Source of the DNA: Escherichia coli
GTDB lineage: Bacteria > Pseudomonadota > Gammaproteobacteria > Enterobacterales > Enterobacteriaceae
Assembly (NCBI GenBank): GCA_902500125.1
Contig: GCA_902500125.1_4132.1
DNA: 64,000 nt
Direction: 5' to 3' (one strand)
Part shown: piece after piece, positions 27,920 to 32,114 of the stretch
How positions within the stretch are numbered: position 1 is the first letter of the stretch
How the letters are laid out: each line of letters starts with the position of its first letter
Translations under genes and position numbers: made by a program
The notes under the pieces: model-generated
The model's input: the letters and a program-made list of their open reading frames with translations, nothing else
Told to the model about the DNA's origin: nothing
The model's database searches: none

Positions 27920-28147
27920 ATGACAAATACTTTTAAGTACTACCTCAATACTCTAAATGAACTAGAGTACGCGAAGTTTCTCGCGGATTGTTCGTGGCTA
28001 ATTGAGCTAAAAAAATATAACAGTACTGGATGTAACCTTATGCTGAACAATGCACTTGATACCCTTGTAGTGAGCATTTTACACAACAACATCTGCGGGG
28101 ATAGAAACAAACAATTATCAAAAATCTTAGTACTGCTATCTATATGA
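27920..28147 (+). CDS. family A small tandem paralog
   Basis: Track ORF; AAGGAGA RBS. Confidence 0.5.
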   Translation: MTNTFKYYLNTLNELEYAKFLADCSWLIELKKYNSTGCNLMLNNALDTLVVSILHNNICGDRNKQLSKILVLLSI

Positions 28148-28347
28148 ATATCGAACAGTACTACATCGATGCACTACCAACAAAAGGTCTACGTGAAAGC
28201 CTACTGCATACACAAACTAATTTCAAACACCTCAAACGTAGCCCTAAACTCCTGAACTCGTACAGGAATAATAACATAAGAAATGCTTTACAAGGGGTAG
28301 AATGTATGCAATACTATTACATCCTTACCCTATTAATCGAGTACTAA
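28144..28347 (+). CDS. family A small tandem paralog
   Basis: Track ORF; ATGA overlap. Confidence 0.55.
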   Translation: MNIEQYYIDALPTKGLRESLLHTQTNFKHLKRSPKLLNSYRNNNIRNALQGVECMQYYYILTLLIEY

Positions 28348-28348
28348 T

Positions 28349-28558
28349 ATGAATACTGAACATAAAGAATTCTACACCAAATACCTTAGCAACGAAGAAC
28401 AATTGTTTCTAAGGAGTGTATCACCTGTAAGTACCAATACTCAATTCGGTAGAGATTGCTTTAATAATTGTATACGTAGTACTCTAGAAGCAATCGAATG
28501 CAATAACAAAAATATTATGTACTCAGGTTTAATAGGACTAATATATTTCTATGAATAA
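28349..28558 (+). CDS. family A small tandem paralog
   Basis: Track ORF; MNTEHKEFY start, ends LIYFYE. Confidence 0.55.
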   Translation: MNTEHKEFYTKYLSNEEQLFLRSVSPVSTNTQFGRDCFNNCIRSTLEAIECNNKNIMYSGLIGLIYFYE

Positions 28559-28745
28559 TCATAAAGATTTCTATTGTAGTAAACTACCCAAACAAGAACA
28601 GCTATCATTCTCTTTAGCACCACCTATGAGAAAGGATAATCTGTATTATAATTACGATTTCAGGATGGTGACACGTTATGCAATAGAACATCAATTTCCT
28701 GAAACTAAGTACTTATCTATCATGAACATCATCTTTAAGTTCTAA
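28551..28745 (+). CDS. family A small tandem paralog
   Basis: Track ORF. Confidence 0.55.
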   Translation: MNNHKDFYCSKLPKQEQLSFSLAPPMRKDNLYYNYDFRMVTRYAIEHQFPETKYLSIMNIIFKF

Positions 28746-28756
28746 AAGAGTACTAT

Positions 28757-28969
28757 ATGAAAACTATGAACATTCATCAGTACTACTTGGATATTCTCCC
28801 TAAAGATGTACAGTTCATCCTTAAACAAGAATACAGTACTTTAAAAAACCTTAAAAGAACCGCACCGAATGTATTAATCCTGCACCAAGAAAATGTAGTT
28901 GATAATATTCTACAAGGTGTACCAGGAACCGAGTACTTTAACATAATAAGGCTAATTACATTACCATGA
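28757..28969 (+). CDS. family A small tandem paralog
   Basis: Track ORF. Confidence 0.55.
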   Translation: MKTMNIHQYYLDILPKDVQFILKQEYSTLKNLKRTAPNVLILHQENVVDNILQGVPGTEYFNIIRLITLP

Positions 28970-29151
28970 ATCATATATTATACTATTACCAAAATCTATC
29001 CGACAGGGACAAGTACACCCACAACTCCCATGTATGGTACTACAAACGCGGTAGTATAAGGGACAAACAACATTACTTCAGTACTGCTATAAAAGAAACA
29101 CTAACAACTAAGTACACGTACAGAGCAGTACTGAAACTTATTGATATGTAA
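28966..29151 (+). CDS. family A small tandem paralog
   Basis: Track ORF; ATGA overlap. Confidence 0.55.
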   Translation: MNHILYYYQNLSDRDKYTHNSHVWYYKRGSIRDKQHYFSTAIKETLTTKYTYRAVLKLIDM

Positions 29152-29161
29152 AGAGAATACT

Positions 29162-29347
29162 ATGAATACATTTGAGTACTATACAAATAAACTATCTATG
29201 CCAGAAAGATCTCATCTCTATGTGTGGAGAAATGCGTATAAAAGCGGCAATAAACTTATACAAAGAAATTCCCTTACAGTGTGTACAAATTTAATTAAAG
29301 CAGAGTACCGCACATATATTGAAGTACTGAAACTAATCTCTATCTAA
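29162..29347 (+). CDS. family A small tandem paralog
   Basis: Internal ATG (MNTFEYY) of track ORF 29141..29347. Confidence 0.5.
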   Translation: MNTFEYYTNKLSMPERSHLYVWRNAYKSGNKLIQRNSLTVCTNLIKAEYRTYIEVLKLISI

Positions 29348-29355
29348 GGTACTCT

Positions 29356-29535
29356 ATGCAAGAATTCTATATCTATAAACTTCAGCACAAAGATAGATAC
29401 AACTATAATAAATTCCAAAGGTACTACACAGTCGGGAACAAAAGAGATAAAAAACGATACTTTCTATCATGTACAGTAGAAGCACAAAACGAAAAGTACA
29501 CGTACAGAGAAGTACTGAAACTCATCTCTATGTAA
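29356..29535 (+). CDS. family A small tandem paralog (59 aa)
   Basis: MQEFYIYKL..VLKLISM; below track cutoff. Confidence 0.45.
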   Translation: MQEFYIYKLQHKDRYNYNKFQRYYTVGNKRDKKRYFLSCTVEAQNEKYTYREVLKLISM

Positions 29536-29543
29536 GGAATAAT

Positions 29544-29723
29544 ATGCAAGAATACTATATAGAACACATAAACATTAAAGACCGTTTCATGTACGACACC
29601 TTCGTGAAGTACTACAACCTGGCAACTAACAGTACTAAAAATATTAATCTCAATAGCTGCATTCATCACGCACTAACAAAAGATAATCCCTTCAGGGAAA
29701 TCCTCGCACTAGCATCTGTATAA
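29544..29723 (+). CDS. family A small tandem paralog
   Basis: Internal ATG (MQEYYIEH) of track ORF 29469..29723. Confidence 0.5.
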   Translation: MQEYYIEHINIKDRFMYDTFVKYYNLATNSTKNINLNSCIHHALTKDNPFREILALASV

Positions 29724-29733
29724 AGGAAACCAA

Positions 29734-30571: not shown

Positions 30572-30572
30572 T

Positions 30573-30755
30573 ATGCACAAAGAATACTACACACAATTTC
30601 TCCCCAGCATTTTTGAACACTACGCCAGATACAAAGTCCCTATGGATAACGATTTGGCAGTACTGGGATTCAATAACTGCATAGAACGAAGTATAGAAAA
30701 TAGTAGTAGTTATGACCAGCTATATAACACTATCCTACTTATATTCAGGTACTAA
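30573..30755 (+). CDS. family A small tandem paralog
   Basis: Track ORF; MHKEYYTQF..LLIFRY. Confidence 0.55.
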   Translation: MHKEYYTQFLPSIFEHYARYKVPMDNDLAVLGFNNCIERSIENSSSYDQLYNTILLIFRY

Positions 30756-30756
30756 T

Positions 30757-30945
30757 ATGCATAAAGAATACTACACAAAATATTTCCCAATGTACCTCAG
30801 TACTAATCTATTAGATAAACCTCGCGGTATCAATGCACAAAACGATAAAGTGTACTTTACTATGTGCACTAAAGCATGTATACTAGATTTTGACAGCTAT
30901 CATCGAGTACTGTATCATACCCTGTACCTAGCTTTCGTATTCTAA
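30757..30945 (+). CDS. family A small tandem paralog
   Basis: Internal ATG (MHKEYYTKY) of track ORF 30712..30945. Confidence 0.5.
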   Translation: MHKEYYTKYFPMYLSTNLLDKPRGINAQNDKVYFTMCTKACILDFDSYHRVLYHTLYLAFVF

Positions 30946-30954
30946 AAGAACAAT

Positions 30955-31140
30955 ATGCATAAAGAATTCTACTTAAGCCATCTCGATCTAAACTCCCAAA
31001 TGCTTATACCACTAATCCCAATAGATATCAAGGATAAGAAAAATACCGAACAATTCATTTACCATACACAGTGTGCGATCACCCCAAATTACATTCCATA
31101 TGAATTGTACTACATTATCGCCCTAATATATAGGTACTAA
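30955..31140 (+). CDS. family A small tandem paralog
   Basis: Track ORF; ends ALIYRY. Confidence 0.55.
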   Translation: MHKEFYLSHLDLNSQMLIPLIPIDIKDKKNTEQFIYHTQCAITPNYIPYELYYIIALIYRY

Positions 31141-31141
31141 T

Positions 31142-31327
31142 ATGCATAGAGAATACTACACACAATTTGTTAAAGGGAACTACAAACATGCCGTACCCAG
31201 AACCCCTTTAAATTCTCATGACCCAAGTACTATATTCTTGTTTAATGACGCAATACGTACAGTACTCAATACTAAAGATGAACAAGTGCAGTACGTATTC
31301 TTACTATTACTTATATACAGACACTAA
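31142..31327 (+). CDS. family A small tandem paralog
   Basis: Track ORF; ends LLLIYRH. Confidence 0.55.
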   Translation: MHREYYTQFVKGNYKHAVPRTPLNSHDPSTIFLFNDAIRTVLNTKDEQVQYVFLLLLIYRH

Positions 31328-31332
31328 CTAAT

Positions 31333-31542
31333 ATGAATAAAGAACATAAAGAATACTACTCCAAACACCTCAGCCCCTCAGAACAAATGTTTCTAAGGAC
31401 TACTCCACCTTTAAGTACTAATACATTTTTCGGCAGAGTATGCTACAATAATTGTATTCAAATGACTTTAAACGCAAACGAAGATGGTAACAGTACTAAC
31501 CTGTACTCAGGTATCATAGGTATACTATTCCTGTATGAATAA
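31333..31542 (+). CDS. family A small tandem paralog
   Basis: Track ORF; near-duplicate of 28349..28558. Confidence 0.55.
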   Translation: MNKEHKEYYSKHLSPSEQMFLRTTPPLSTNTFFGRVCYNNCIQMTLNANEDGNSTNLYSGIIGILFLYE

Positions 31543-31723
31543 TTACAAAGACTTCTATTTGAATACACTACCTACTGTACTTTCTCTAAGTGCTCAATGT
31601 AAAATCCCGCTGGATAATGCTTACGCCAGATATAGCTATTCCATAACTGTTAATCGATGTATAGAGAATCATTGCAGTACTAACCAGTACTATAACATAA
31701 TCCTACTTATATTCAGGTACTAA
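31535..31723 (+). CDS. family A small tandem paralog
   Basis: Track ORF; ends LLIFRY. Confidence 0.55.
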   Translation: MNNYKDFYLNTLPTVLSLSAQCKIPLDNAYARYSYSITVNRCIENHCSTNQYYNIILLIFRY

Positions 31724-31724
31724 T

Positions 31725-31907
31725 ATGAATAAAGAACATAAAGAATTCTATATACGAAAACTAACATTCGTCCCCGTAAGAATATATAAAGAATGCGACC
31801 CAAGATTATACCTATGGCACTTCAATGAGTGCATAAAAGATTCTATATACCATAAGAACTATAAAGAACAATTGTGCTCAGTACTAACACTAGTACTATC
31901 ATATTAA
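31725..31907 (+). CDS. family A small tandem paralog
   Basis: Track ORF. Confidence 0.55.
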   Translation: MNKEHKEFYIRKLTFVPVRIYKECDPRLYLWHFNECIKDSIYHKNYKEQLCSVLTLVLSY

Positions 31908-31922
31908 TTAATAGAGAATACT

Positions 31923-32114
31923 ATGTATAAAAACTTCTATATAAGTAAACTAAAAGAAAATGAACAAGTATGGATTAGATCTATAATTCCACTGGCATTT
32001 AATAGATATGCATTTAACAGATGTACCGAGATTGCTATAGACCCTTATAATATTAAAGAGAATGTACAGTATAATCAGTACTACTATATCTTAATGCTTA
32101 TATATAGAAAGTAA
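31923..32114 (+). CDS. family A small tandem paralog
   Basis: Track ORF; ends MLIYRK. Confidence 0.55.
   Translation: MYKNFYISKLKENEQVWIRSIIPLAFNRYAFNRCTEIAIDPYNIKENVQYNQYYYILMLIYRK

What the first reader, a model, noticed from the sequence alone, without database searches (positions are those of the whole stretch)
27920..32114. Second tandem array of about 19 small paralogs (family A)
Nineteen + strand genes of 59-75 aa plus one 219-aa gene are transcribed divergently from the propeller cluster from a TTGACA-N17-TACTAT promoter. Members share an N-terminus (M-[NH]-x-[EK]-x-[YF]-Y..L) and an aromatic or basic C-terminus (..LLIFRY, LLIYRY, LIYFYE) around a variable middle; 28349..28558 and 31333..31542 are near-duplicates. 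It is a different family from array B but has the same organisation, so the genome carries at least two independent small-protein libraries.
Basis: partly seen in the sequence, partly recalled or inferred. Interest (0 to 1): 0.8.

Follow-up and report, generated by a model that had tools for sequence, protein, structure and literature searches.

The report
Tandem small-protein gene family in jumbo coliphage
A giant E. coli phage carries one tightly packed operon of 19 genes, 17 of them diverged copies of a single ~60-residue four-helix protein found only in this phage genus. Copy number changes between related phages by recombination at the gene borders, which makes it look like a viral multigene family, but its function is untested.

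Summary
The array is real. Window 27920-32114 (+) holds 18 small genes (59-75 aa) plus one 219-aa gene, packed -8 to +20 nt apart behind one conserved TTGACA-N17-TACTAT promoter.

Seventeen small genes form one superfamily in three subfamilies: A x11 (phrog_11711), B x4 and C x2. A-B, A-C and B-C profile matches all beat 100 column-shuffled controls. Gene g01 shares only the N-terminal motif, and the 219-aa gene is unrelated. The "near-duplicates" are 58% identical in protein and 74% in DNA.

AlphaFold gives a confident small four-helix bundle (pLDDT 93.8) with no informative structural or sequence relative. The family occurs only in Asteriusvirus (121Q/PBECO4-like) phages of Escherichia and Salmonella.

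Across 12 genomes the array has 15-23 genes in the same order. One two-gene difference maps to a crossover inside a 28-nt identical gene-border repeat. Pooled dN/dS is 0.28-0.54.

Best reading: a host-polymerase-transcribed (probably early), translationally coupled, birth-and-death multigene family of intracellular host-interaction proteins (host takeover or counter-defence). The anatomy and evolution are well supported. The function is inferred only. It is a new member of a known kind and of moderate interest.

The parts
27866..27894 (+). Sigma-70-type promoter TTGACA-N17-TACTAT. The palindrome CAGTACTG (27878-27885) sits in its spacer.
   Evidence: The -35, -10 and palindrome are invariant in 10 phages.
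27920..28147 (+). g01, 75 aa. First gene and the only one with a strong Shine-Dalgarno (AAGGAG). It shares only the N-terminal F-x-Y-Y-x-x-x-L motif with the family.
   Evidence: hhalign A-D is not significant, and B-D gives a local 14-column match. dN/dS 0.54.
28144..28347 (+). g02, 67 aa, subfamily C
   Evidence: BLASTP to g05 gives 3e-12. hhalign C-A 3.9e-4 and C-B 5.9e-4, with 0/100 shuffles reaching the real score.
28349..28558 (+). g03, 69 aa, subfamily A (phrog_11711)
   Evidence: E 1.7e-12. 58% identical to g16.
28551..28745 (+). g04, 64 aa, subfamily A
   Evidence: E 1.3e-22.
28766..28969 (+). g05, 67 aa (alternative ATG at 28757), subfamily C
28966..29151 (+). g06, 61 aa, subfamily B
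   Evidence: BLASTP to g08 gives 1.5e-15. Alignment A5.
29162..29347 (+). g07, 61 aa (the ORF opens at TTG 29141), subfamily B
29356..29535 (+). g08, 59 aa, subfamily B
29544..29723 (+). g09, 59 aa (the ORF opens at 29469), subfamily B
29734..30393 (+). g10, 219 aa, basic (pI 9.4). Unrelated to the small family (phrog_29152). It holds a fixed position between the B block and the A block in every phage examined.
   Evidence: The AlphaFold model is unusable (pLDDT 36.5).
30386..30571 (+). g11, 61 aa, subfamily A
   Evidence: E 7.9e-28.
30573..30755 (+). g12, 60 aa, subfamily A. This is the protein that was modelled: a four-helix bundle with helices at 3-7, 12-18, 27-42 and 46-58.
   Evidence: E 2e-24. 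(pLDDT 93.8, pTM 0.77).
30757..30945 (+). g13, 62 aa, subfamily A
   Evidence: E 1.6e-27.
30890..30918 (+). Promoter-like site inside g13: TTGACA-N17-TATCAT (11 of 12 matches), with AGTACTG abutting the -10. It may be an internal promoter or may simply reflect the coding sequence R-V-L-Y-H.
   Evidence: D11. Not tested further.
30955..31140 (+). g14, 61 aa, subfamily A
   Evidence: E 1.8e-11.
31142..31327 (+). g15, 61 aa, subfamily A
   Evidence: E 2.9e-9.
31333..31542 (+). g16, 69 aa, subfamily A. Absent from 121Q, SP27 and G17.
31535..31723 (+). g17, 62 aa, subfamily A. Absent from 121Q, SP27 and G17.
31725..31907 (+). g18, 60 aa, subfamily A
   Evidence: E 1.5e-6.
31923..32114 (+). g19, 63 aa, subfamily A. 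Last gene of the array.
   Evidence: E 7.1e-24.
30536..30604 (+). Reference copy of the 69-nt gene-border repeat (end of one gene, TAA, ATG, start of the next). Other copies are at 30720-30788, 31105-31173 and 31688-31756, at 62-80% identity. It is the best-conserved DNA in the array.
   Evidence: family D2, and D3-D7.
31327..31354 (+). The 28-nt stretch ACTAATATGAATAAAGAACATAAAGAAT, identical to 31719-31746. Phage 121Q switches from g15/g16-type to g18-type sequence inside it and so lacks g16 and g17. This marks a site of unequal homologous recombination.
   Evidence: (three-way alignment).
28343..28588 (+). A 246-nt segment duplicated at 31327-31572 (74% identity). It is an old two-gene duplication, g03-g04 matching g16-g17.
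   Evidence: D1. (g03/g16 2e-30, g04/g17 1e-11).

Best explanation
The window comes from an Asteriusvirus (121Q/PBECO4-like) jumbo coliphage. Positions 27866-32114 form one operon. A single host-type (sigma-70) promoter and one strong ribosome-binding site open it, and 19 genes follow, separated by -8 to +20 nt. The downstream genes are therefore most likely translated by coupling (termination-reinitiation).

Seventeen of the 18 small genes are diverged copies of one genus-restricted gene. Each encodes a soluble, cytoplasmic ~60-residue four-helix bundle. The hydrophobic core and the short N-terminal [EQ]-[YF]-Y helix are conserved, while the surface and net charge (pI 5.3-9.6) differ from copy to copy.

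The family evolves by birth and death. The steps are tandem and segmental duplication, long divergence under moderate purifying selection, and gain or loss of whole genes by unequal homologous recombination within the conserved gene-border sequence.

Function is inferred, not shown. The proteins are probably made early in infection by the host polymerase and act inside the cell as a panel of binders against host proteins, for host takeover or counter-defence. Different copies would recognise different or variant targets, which would explain why many old copies are kept and why the complement differs between phage isolates.

My confidence is about 0.85 for the anatomy and evolutionary mechanism and about 0.35 for the functional class.
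For: Shown:
- ORFs and spacing.
- Promoter, and its invariance in 10 phages.
- Paralogy.
- Confident four-helix model, with conserved columns that are mostly hydrophobic and spaced i/i+3/i+4 in helices 3 and 4.
- No signal peptide-like or transmembrane character: GRAVY is negative for all 17 supported family members and positive (0.13) only for g01; charges vary.
- Pooled dN/dS of 0.28-0.54 in 27 ortholog groups, so these are real, constrained genes.
- The same gene order with 15-23 genes in 12 genomes.
- A crossover mapped inside a 28-nt identical border repeat, and the border is the best-conserved DNA in the array.
- Restriction to Asteriusvirus: 61 hits in 5.8 billion proteins, 29 representatives in 1.84 billion, 36 phage records that are all Escherichia or Salmonella jumbo phages, and no match in 5,426 complete E. 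coli genomes.

Inferred:
- Early timing, from the sigma-70 promoter. It fits the related phage CBB, where RpoD-type promoters cluster in a region of short ORFs that the authors take to be early host-takeover genes (PMC5259590).
- The array shows the strongest preference in the window for C-ending Tyr/Phe/Ile codons: 0.50, against 0.21 in the virion RCC1-like genes.
- Array proteins are absent from two virion proteomes, whereas the neighbouring RCC1-like proteins are present. The datasets are phAPEC6 (PMC7247149 Table 1) and JP4 (PMC12648861 supplement 2).
- Precedent: T4 amplifies the small ToxN inhibitor tifA by recombination (bioRxiv 10.1101/2022.04.14.488369), and accordion-like family expansion in large viruses is reviewed in PMC13359090.
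Against: - No expression data for this genus turned up in the papers searched, so 'early' rests on a promoter consensus and on analogy.
- The conserved border could be explained entirely by protein and translation-coupling constraints. Only one recombination breakpoint was mapped to the nucleotide.
- Ortholog-level replacements are not significantly concentrated on the paralog-variable columns (rho 0.23, p 0.07), and dN/dS is below 1. There is therefore no sign of ongoing diversifying selection of the kind an arms-race repertoire might show.
- The C-ending codon bias may partly reflect the genome-wide GTAC/AGTACT motif enrichment.
Confidence: 0.6

Rival explanations
1. Packaged 'internal' proteins. 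The conserved N-terminus would be a capsid-targeting signal, as in the T4 internal proteins IPI-III, and the proteins would be injected with the DNA to act before transcription starts.
For: A short conserved N-terminal motif is shared even by g01, which is otherwise unrelated. The array lies next to RCC1-like genes whose products are virion-associated in phAPEC6 and JP4.
Against: Homology runs the full length of the protein as a folded domain, not just a leader. No T4-type (L/I)-x-E cleavage motif follows the N-terminal motif in the sequences (the T4 motif is from my own knowledge). The promoter is host-type, not late-type. None of the 9 annotated phAPEC6 array genes (gp540c-548c) and none of the array proteins in JP4 were found in virions, although a 4.66-kDa protein was detected in phAPEC6 and 86-89-aa proteins in JP4. 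Caveat: 10 of the 19 phAPEC6 array genes were not annotated, and the JP4 search database used other gene calls.
Confidence: 0.06
2. Dedicated chaperones or adaptors for the neighbouring RCC1-like propeller paralogs. On this reading two co-expanded families work together, one small partner per propeller variant.
For: The two families are arranged divergently and adjacently in every genome examined. Both are multi-copy and variable in number.
Against: The promoter types imply different timing: a sigma-70 promoter for the array, while the RCC1-like products are virion components. Copy numbers do not match: the window holds 8 propeller-family ORFs (7 full-length plus one 106-aa fragment) against 17 small genes, and fEgEco12 has about 11 against about 19. 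Nothing links the proteins physically.
Confidence: 0.08
3. Functionless or selfish expansion. The copies would be a by-product of a recombination-prone repeat in a genome with spare packaging capacity, kept by drift rather than by selection for many different activities.
For: Copy number varies freely, from 15 to 23. dN/dS is relatively high for phage genes at 0.3-0.5, and some ortholog groups are near 1 (A10 0.92, A18 0.70, B20 2.67 from few changes). Tandem duplication has been proposed as a route to jumbo genome size (Hua et al., cited in PMC7247149).
Against: All reading frames are intact in 12 of the 13 related-phage records examined, which come from four continents; the exception is the 'unverified' CMSTMSU record. 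Pooled dN/dS is clearly below 1, and several groups are at 0.05-0.15. The paralogs are old, at 25-58% identity, yet each is kept as a recognisable ortholog group at a fixed position. The hydrophobic core is conserved and the fold prediction is confident.
Confidence: 0.12
4. Small DNA-binding regulators, for example proteins that read the abundant CAGTACTG palindrome in the phage's promoters and so time the early-gene programme.
For: The palindrome occurs 65 times in the window and sits in the spacer of the array's own promoter and of a class of TTGACA-N8-CAGTACTG-TATAAT promoters. Subfamily B members are basic, with pI 9.6.
Confidence: 0.06
5. Not protein-coding. The periodicity would reflect a DNA or RNA repeat, and the ORFs would be incidental.
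For: Composition is atypical for coding sequence in this genome: G at codon position 1 is 17% against 33%, and GC skew is negative on the supposed coding strand. Many copies are left unannotated in GenBank records.
Against: Nineteen consecutive open frames lie on one strand in 32-34% GC DNA. Across orthologs, synonymous change exceeds non-synonymous change per site in 24 of 26 ortholog groups with a defined ratio. An independent protein HMM matches 11 genes. The protein alignment yields a pLDDT 93.8 fold. No Rfam family matches. The low G content follows from proteins rich in Tyr, Asn, Lys, Ile and Leu and poor in Gly, Ala, Val and Asp.
Confidence: 0.02

Closest known systems
Multigene families and 'genomic accordions' of large DNA viruses (poxvirus K3L amplification; African swine fever virus MGF100/110/360/505). 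Accordion concept as reviewed in PMC13359090; details from my own knowledge.
   Same: Tandem arrays of diverged paralogs. Copy number differs between isolates. Genes are gained and lost by homologous recombination between repeats. The families are lineage-restricted orphans.
   Different: Here the members are about 60 aa, sit in a single translationally coupled bacterial-type operon, and are old, stable paralogs rather than recent identical amplifications. A role against host defence is shown for the eukaryotic-virus cases and is not shown here.
T4 tifA segmental amplification (Srikant, Guegler and Laub, bioRxiv 10.1101/2022.04.14.488369)
   Same: A small phage protein gene becomes multi-copy through recombination. 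The product is an intracellular inhibitor of a host defence toxin. Amplification trades off against other accessory genes.
   Different: The tifA copies are identical, arose in laboratory evolution, and each repeat carries flanking genes. Here the copies are 25-58% identical and fixed across a genus. No target is known.
Hyperplastic regions of T4-type phages with PeSL promoter/stem-loop cassettes (PMC2839356, PMC4122927)
   Same: Small orphan ORFs under early promoters. A short conserved sequence at the ORF borders serves as the substrate for modular gain and loss.
   Different: PeSLs are intergenic regulatory motifs that flank unrelated ORFs, each with its own promoter. In this array there is no intergenic space, the conserved border is the coding sequence of the paralogs themselves, and one promoter serves all the genes. 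The region downstream of the array (32.1-52 kb) resembles the PeSL arrangement more closely.
Early region of the Rak2-like phage CBB (PMC5259590)
   Same: It is a related jumbo myovirus. RpoD-type promoters concentrate in a long run of short hypothetical ORFs, which the authors interpret as early host-takeover genes. Twenty-two CBB ORFs are reported as paralogs.
   Different: No homolog of this family was found outside Asteriusvirus. The CBB ORFs are mostly unrelated to one another and have individual promoters.
T4 internal proteins IPI/IPII/IPIII and their polymorphic relatives (my own knowledge)
   Same: A set of small, variable proteins that share a conserved N-terminal motif, and at least one of them (IPI*) has an anti-restriction role.
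   Different: The internal proteins share only the roughly 10-residue capsid-targeting leader, are cleaved by the prohead protease, and are packaged. Here homology spans the whole fold, and no array protein was detected in virions in two proteomes.
Colicin-type immunity proteins and bacterial poly-immunity loci (my own knowledge)
   Same: Small four-helix proteins with a conserved scaffold and variable specificity surfaces, sometimes arrayed in tandem as a panel of inhibitors.

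Membership tests
phrog_11711 (PHROGs v4, unknown function) | Full-length match to the 62-position family HMM | tested here: met
   Eleven genes (g03, g04, g11-g19) match at E 1.5e-6 to 7.9e-28. The other eight do not.
phrog_29152 (PHROGs v4, unknown function) | Full-length match to the 223-position HMM | tested here: met
   g10 matches at E 6.9e-113 over residues 1-219.
One superfamily uniting subfamilies A, B and C | End-to-end, collinear profile-profile similarity above composition-matched controls | tested here: met
   A-B E 6.8e-6 (56 columns), A-C 3.9e-4 (50 columns), B-C 5.9e-4 (58 columns). 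No column shuffle out of 100 reaches the real score in any of the three comparisons.
One superfamily uniting subfamilies A, B and C | Inclusion of g01 and g10 | tested here: not met
   For g01 against A, 14 of 100 shuffles reach the real score, and only a 14-column N-terminal motif matches B. For g10, hhalign E values against A, B, C and D range from 0.034 to 0.5.
Viral multigene family / genomic accordion | Tandem paralogs whose copy number differs between related isolates | tested here: met
   15-23 genes in 12 genomes, in conserved order.
Viral multigene family / genomic accordion | Gain or loss by homologous recombination between the repeats | tested here: met
   The 121Q versus window breakpoint lies inside a 28-nt identical border repeat. 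Only one breakpoint was resolved to the nucleotide.
Viral multigene family / genomic accordion | Recent, near-identical copies that expand under selection | tested here: not met
   The closest pair is 58% identical in protein and 74% in DNA. Ortholog groups are stable across genomes.
Viral multigene family / genomic accordion | Members antagonise host defence or set host range | not testable with these tools
   This needs deletion or expression experiments.
T4-type internal proteins | Similarity confined to an N-terminal capsid-targeting leader followed by a prohead-protease site | tested here: not met
   Similarity spans the whole protein. No (L/I)-x-E site follows the motif (the definition of the motif is from my own knowledge).
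T4-type internal proteins | Presence in the virion | tested here: not met
   Array proteins are absent from the phAPEC6 (62 proteins) and JP4 (49 proteins) virion proteomes. Caveat: gene annotation was incomplete in the search databases.
PeSL-type mobile regulatory cassettes (T4-type phages) | Each ORF flanked by an intergenic early promoter plus stem-loop | tested here: not met
   Junctions are -8 to +20 nt, and there is one promoter for the whole array.
Diversity-generating retroelement target | Template/variable repeat pair with adenine-specific differences, and a nearby reverse transcriptase | not tested
   No search for a reverse transcriptase was run. The paralogs differ throughout by ordinary substitutions and indels at 25-58% identity, which does not resemble a TR/VR pair.
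Helix-turn-helix or other small DNA-binding regulators | Recognisable DNA-binding fold | tested here: not met

The most novel reading that the evidence does not exclude
The array could be a phage-encoded counter-defence repertoire. On this reading each small four-helix protein neutralises a different allele or type of a polymorphic host factor, such as defence nucleases or toxin-antitoxin toxins. The conserved gene borders would let whole genes be swapped, lost or regained between co-infecting phages. That would make it a bacteriophage counterpart of the ASFV/poxvirus multigene families or of bacterial poly-immunity loci. Together with array B (23 genes) and the RCC1-like cluster, it would account for much of how this genus reached 350-385 kb.
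Probability: 0.25. Interest if true: 0.8.

Novelty: new member of a known kind. Interest (0 to 1): 0.5.

Why it matters
Arrays of 15-23 diverged copies of one small gene in a single operon are, to my knowledge, unusual in phages. None of the Asteriusvirus papers I could read (121Q-group genome papers, phAPEC6, JP4, Sharanji, fEgEco12, UE-S1) mentions this one, and many copies are not even annotated in GenBank records.

If the proteins prove to be host-takeover or anti-defence factors, the array would supply about 50 ortholog groups of natural ~60-residue binders on a single scaffold. It would also be a tractable phage model for how multigene families help build giant viral genomes.

If they have no phenotype, the array still documents unequal recombination at coding-sequence borders as a mechanism of genome-size change in jumbo phages.

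Tried and rejected

2. The 219-aa gene as a functional handle. Its 23 homologs are all from Asteriusvirus, the model had pLDDT 36.5, and there was no PDB, Pfam or NCBIfam match. It was a dead end.

3. Remote homologs outside the genus. Three profile searches and one exhaustive HMMER scan found none.

4. The idea that the array lies in the terminal repeat or first-injected DNA, prompted by the report of an 8.3-kb DTR in UE-S1. The 'repeat_region' features near the array are ~105-bp repeats between RCC1 genes, and the array sits at about 114 kb in that record. I dropped the idea.

5. Whether ortholog-level amino-acid replacements concentrate on paralog-variable columns. The trend is weak and not significant (rho 0.23, p 0.07).

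6. A first dN/dS pass by ungapped suffix alignment was distorted by indels. I replaced it with codon alignments.

7. 'B23' in BF17, WPEC5 and fEgEco12 is a spurious overlapping-frame ORF, and 'A30' is the g18 ortholog with a mis-trimmed start. Both were corrected in the counts.

8. Literature searches for the CAGTACTG motif and for prior descriptions of the array returned nothing relevant.

9. Rfam and tRNA scans of the window were empty.

Full report
**Source of the window.** Megablast of the array and of 24 kb around it matches only jumbo Escherichia and Salmonella phages of the genus Asteriusvirus (121Q, PBECO4, slurp01, JP4, phAPEC6 and others; 310-386 kb). Identity is about 90-97% in mosaic pieces, and no record covers 80% of the 24-kb query. 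The window therefore comes from a member of this genus, in one of its variable regions.

**Checking the observation.** The + strand between 27920 and 32114 carries 18 small ORFs and one 219-aa ORF.
- Five ORFs open upstream of the start that matches their paralogs. The likely starts are 28766, 29162, 29544, 30386 and 30757.
- That gives products of 59-75 aa plus the 219-aa protein, 19 genes in all.
- Gene junctions span -8 to +20 nt. Six are stop/start overlaps and five are a single base apart (TAAnATG).
- Only g01 has a strong Shine-Dalgarno (AAGGAG). Most others have a 3-5-base AGG-type remnant, or nothing, embedded in the previous gene's last codons.
- The promoter TTGACA-N17-TACTAT is at 27866-27894. 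Its two hexamers and the CAGTACTG between them are invariant in ten related phages, although the whole 100-nt intergenic region is about 95% conserved.
- RCC1-like propeller genes (phrog_4219) run the other way from 27816.
- No convincing intrinsic terminator follows g19. The nearest candidates are at 32402-32418 and 32921-32954.

**Is the paralogy statistically supported?** Yes, for 17 of the 18 small genes.
- All-against-all BLASTP gives a core of 11 genes (g03, g04, g11-g19), with pairwise E values down to 2e-30. It also gives a block of four (g06-g09, down to 1.5e-15) and a pair (g02/g05, 3e-12).
- An HMM built from the core finds only those 11 genes among all 581 ORFs of at least 40 aa in the window. 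The next hits, at E about 0.01, are g05, an unrelated ORF at 14315-14455 (E 0.01), and then g07.
- Independently, PHROGs v4 places the same 11 genes in phrog_11711 ('unknown function'; E 1.5e-6 to 7.9e-28) and the 219-aa gene in phrog_29152.
- Profile-profile comparison links the three groups end to end. A-B gives E 6.8e-6 with probability 85% over 56 columns. A-C gives 3.9e-4 over 50 columns, and B-C gives 5.9e-4 over 58 columns.
- These proteins have a biased composition (Tyr, Asn and Lys rich), so I calibrated with 100 column shuffles of the target alignment. Shuffled scores average about 9 (sd about 2, maximum 14-17) against real scores of 29.7, 22.4 and 21.8, and none of the 100 reaches the real value.
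- g01 fails the same test against A (14 of 100). It matches B only over a 14-column N-terminal motif (MTNTFKYYLNTL against MNTFEYYTNKL).
- g10 shows nothing.
- In a joint alignment of 41 sequences, one Tyr is invariant and one Leu nearly so.
- The 'near-duplicates' g03 and g16 are 58% identical in protein. They belong to a 246-nt, 74%-identical two-gene duplication, g03-g04 matching g16-g17.

**What the proteins look like.**
- AlphaFold2 on g12 with a 67-sequence family alignment gives pLDDT 93.8 and pTM 0.77. The model has two short helices (3-7, 12-18) and two long ones (27-42, 46-58).
- Column entropies show that the best-conserved positions are K3, E4, F/Y5, Y6, L10, Q15, P23, L24, F33, C36, I/T37, I/L41, Y/L50, L54, L56, I57 and Y/F58. 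Most are hydrophobic and spaced as the inward faces of helices 3 and 4.
- Mean entropy is 1.48 for residues 1-12, 2.19 for 13-44 and 2.0 for 45-60. 'Conserved ends, variable middle' is thus roughly right, but 'conserved core, variable surface' describes it better.
- The proteins are hydrophilic overall, with no long hydrophobic segment, and their pI ranges from 5.3 to 9.6.
- No Pfam or NCBIfam family matches, and no PDB sequence relative was found.
- For g10, the 23 database homologs are all from roughly 350-kb phage contigs or short fragments, and its model is unusable (pLDDT 36.5).

**Distribution.**
- A profile search of 5.8 billion proteins gives 61 hits.
- An exhaustive HMMER scan of 1.84 billion cluster representatives gives 29, all 59-69 aa.
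- A merged A+B+C+g01 profile gives 32.
- Where a source is known, it is an Asteriusvirus-sized contig.
- tblastn against 50,697 phage records finds the family in 36 records, all jumbo phages of Escherichia (32) or Salmonella (4).
- None of 5,426 complete E. coli genomes carries the array.

**Are they real genes?** Uniform ORF calling and HMM classification in nine related loci (plus three more later) recovers the same architecture everywhere. The order is g01-type, C, one or two A, sometimes a second C, 2-6 B, the 219-aa gene, then 8-12 A. Codon-aligned ortholog groups give pooled dN/dS of 0.43 (A), 0.28 (B), 0.39 (C), 0.54 (g01) and 0.50 (g10), and several groups fall at 0.05-0.15. The pairwise counts are not independent, and some groups rest on few changes. 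Even so, the direction is consistent: these are constrained proteins, but fast-evolving ones.

**How the array changes.**
- Total gene number is 19 in the window. In the relatives it is JP4 22, BF17 23, 121Q 17, slurp01 21, WPEC5 21, TH47 17, SP27 20, G17 18, phAPEC6 19, fEgEco12 21 and UE-S1 15. These counts exclude a spurious overlapping ORF.
- The 'unverified' CMSTMSU record has frameshifts and was excluded.
- Differences between genomes are whole-gene presences and absences within a fixed order.
- At the DNA level the best-conserved element is the gene border. It is a 69-nt repeat spanning the last codons, the stop, the ATG and the first codons, with three copies 78-80% and one 62% identical to the reference. 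The gene interiors are too diverged to be detected as repeats.
- Phage 121Q lacks g16 and g17. A three-way alignment shows that 121Q follows the window's g15/g16 border upstream and g18 downstream. The switch lies inside a 28-nt stretch that is identical at both borders (ACTAATATGAATAAAGAACATAAAGAAT, 31327-31354 and 31719-31746). That is the signature of unequal homologous recombination.
- Only this one breakpoint was resolved to the nucleotide.

**Timing and location of the products (inferred).**
- The promoter is host-type.
- In the related phage CBB, RpoD-type promoters cluster in a region of short hypothetical ORFs that its authors regard as early host-takeover genes (PMC5259590).
- Downstream of the array, the window and its relatives carry tens of small + strand genes, each with its own roughly 85-nt spacer. 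Many of those spacers contain TTGACA-N8-CAGTACTG-TATAAT.
- The array prefers C-ending codons for Tyr, Asn, His, Phe, Asp, Cys and Ile more than any other gene set in the window. The fraction is 0.50, against 0.40 and 0.39 in the putative early regions, 0.30 on the left and 0.21 in the RCC1-like genes. This is compatible with tuning to the host translation apparatus. It could also be a side effect of the GTAC-rich motif bias.
- The phAPEC6 virion proteome (62 proteins) contains the flanking RCC1-like proteins but none of gp540c-548c (PMC7247149 Table 1).
- The JP4 virion proteome (49 proteins) likewise contains RCC1-like proteins and proteins as small as 86 aa, but no array member (PMC12648861 supplement 2).
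- Both negatives are weakened by incomplete or different gene calls in the search databases.

**Interpretation.**
- Well supported: a single, translationally coupled operon encoding a genus-restricted, birth-and-death multigene family of small four-helix proteins, remodelled by recombination at its conserved coding borders.
- Inferred: early expression and an intracellular host-directed role, either takeover or counter-defence. The inference rests on promoter type, genomic neighbourhood, absence from virions, small size, surface diversity and precedent.
- The precedents include T4, which becomes resistant to toxIN by recombinational amplification of the small inhibitor gene tifA (bioRxiv 10.1101/2022.04.14.488369). 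Accordion-like family expansion is also a recognised theme in large DNA viruses (PMC13359090).
- Against an active arms-race reading: dN/dS is below 1, replacements do not concentrate significantly on variable columns, and the paralogs are old.
- The rivals all have some support but more evidence against them, as set out in their entries. They are packaged internal proteins, partners of the RCC1-like proteins, functionless expansion, DNA-binding regulators, and non-coding repeats.

**Comparison with known systems and novelty.** The array behaves like a viral multigene family. It meets the tests of tandem paralogy, copy-number polymorphism and recombination at repeats. It fails the 'recent identical amplification' feature of a true accordion, and its function is untestable here.
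- It is not a T4-type internal-protein set.
- It is not a PeSL cassette array.
- It is not a recognisable DNA-binding or immunity-protein family.
- The genes are already in GenBank as 'hypothetical protein' and in PHROGs as an unknown-function family. None of the Asteriusvirus papers I could read describes the array.

I therefore rate it a new member of a known kind, of moderate interest. Array B lies at 53188-59075, has 23 genes with the motif LGTNYQE, belongs to phrog_4148, and has no hhalign relation to A, B, C or g01.

Noticed in passing
Whole window; densest at 32300-34100, 35500-38600 and 44400-52000: The palindrome CAGTACTG (often TCAGTACTGA) occurs 65 times, against about 0.6 expected for the 9-mer. 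A subset forms a fixed promoter architecture, TTGACA-N8-CAGTACTG-TATAAT (for example at 11871, 32777, 37306, 43875, 49797 and 51769). The motif also lies inside coding sequence, including eight sites within the array. It may be a signature or operator of the phage's early promoters, or another genome-wide signal.
   Followed up: partly
window 32115-34168: A 2-kb stretch just downstream of the array has no credible gene and is dense in repeats. It holds about 17 CAGTACTG sites, an exact 28-nt repeat 70 nt apart (32291/32361), a 24-nt x4 tandem repeat (33206-33300) and a 53-nt x2.6 tandem repeat (33949-34084). It has no Rfam match and is gene-poor in relatives too. It could be a regulatory hub or a replication origin.
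   Followed up: partly
window 53188-59075 (+): This is 'array B': 23 tandem, mostly overlapping genes of 52-90 aa sharing the motif LGTNYQE.Y. They belong to phrog_4148 and phrog_28039 (unknown function). hhalign finds no relation to the array studied here.
   Followed up: partly
window 18067-27816 (-): Eight RCC1-like beta-propeller paralogs (phrog_4219) share the N-terminus MLPFVRMFDYGN. Their homologs are virion-associated in the phAPEC6 and JP4 proteomes, and about 105-bp repeats between them are annotated in UE-S1. This is a third expanded family next to the array.
   Followed up: partly
window 27920-32114: The array's composition is atypical for + strand genes of this genome. GC skew on the coding strand is negative (-0.16 to -0.22), G at codon position 1 is 17% against 33%, and C-ending codons for Tyr/Asn/His/Phe/Asp/Cys/Ile reach 0.50, against 0.21-0.40 elsewhere. 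Part of this follows from Tyr/Asn/Lys-rich, Gly/Ala/Val/Asp-poor proteins. The rest is unexplained.
   Followed up: partly
L010 (phAPEC6), L002 (BF17), L005 (CMSTMSU), L008 (SP27): Public records under-annotate the array. phAPEC6 annotates 9 of 19 genes, BF17 13 of 23 and SP27 16 of 20. The CMSTMSU record (flagged 'unverified') has frameshifts that split the 219-aa gene into four pieces. Proteomic searches against such annotations would miss most members.
   Followed up: yes
window 30890-30918, inside g13: A promoter-like site, TTGACA-N17-TATCAT (11 of 12 matches), has AGTACTG directly before the -10, the same layout as the window's recurrent promoter class. It overlaps codons for R-V-L-Y-H, and a weaker version sits at the paralogous place in g11 (30510-30556). 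It may be an internal promoter or a coding coincidence.
   Followed up: no
window 34682/36724, 40543/46523, 35010/46933, 61537/62358, 10176/10524, 6130/7859: Six further two-member paralog pairs are scattered through the window (BLASTP E<1e-4). Duplication is evidently widespread in this genome beyond the three large arrays.
   Followed up: no
whole window: No tRNA or tmRNA gene (ARAGORN) and no Rfam family at gathering threshold was found anywhere in the 64 kb.
   Followed up: yes
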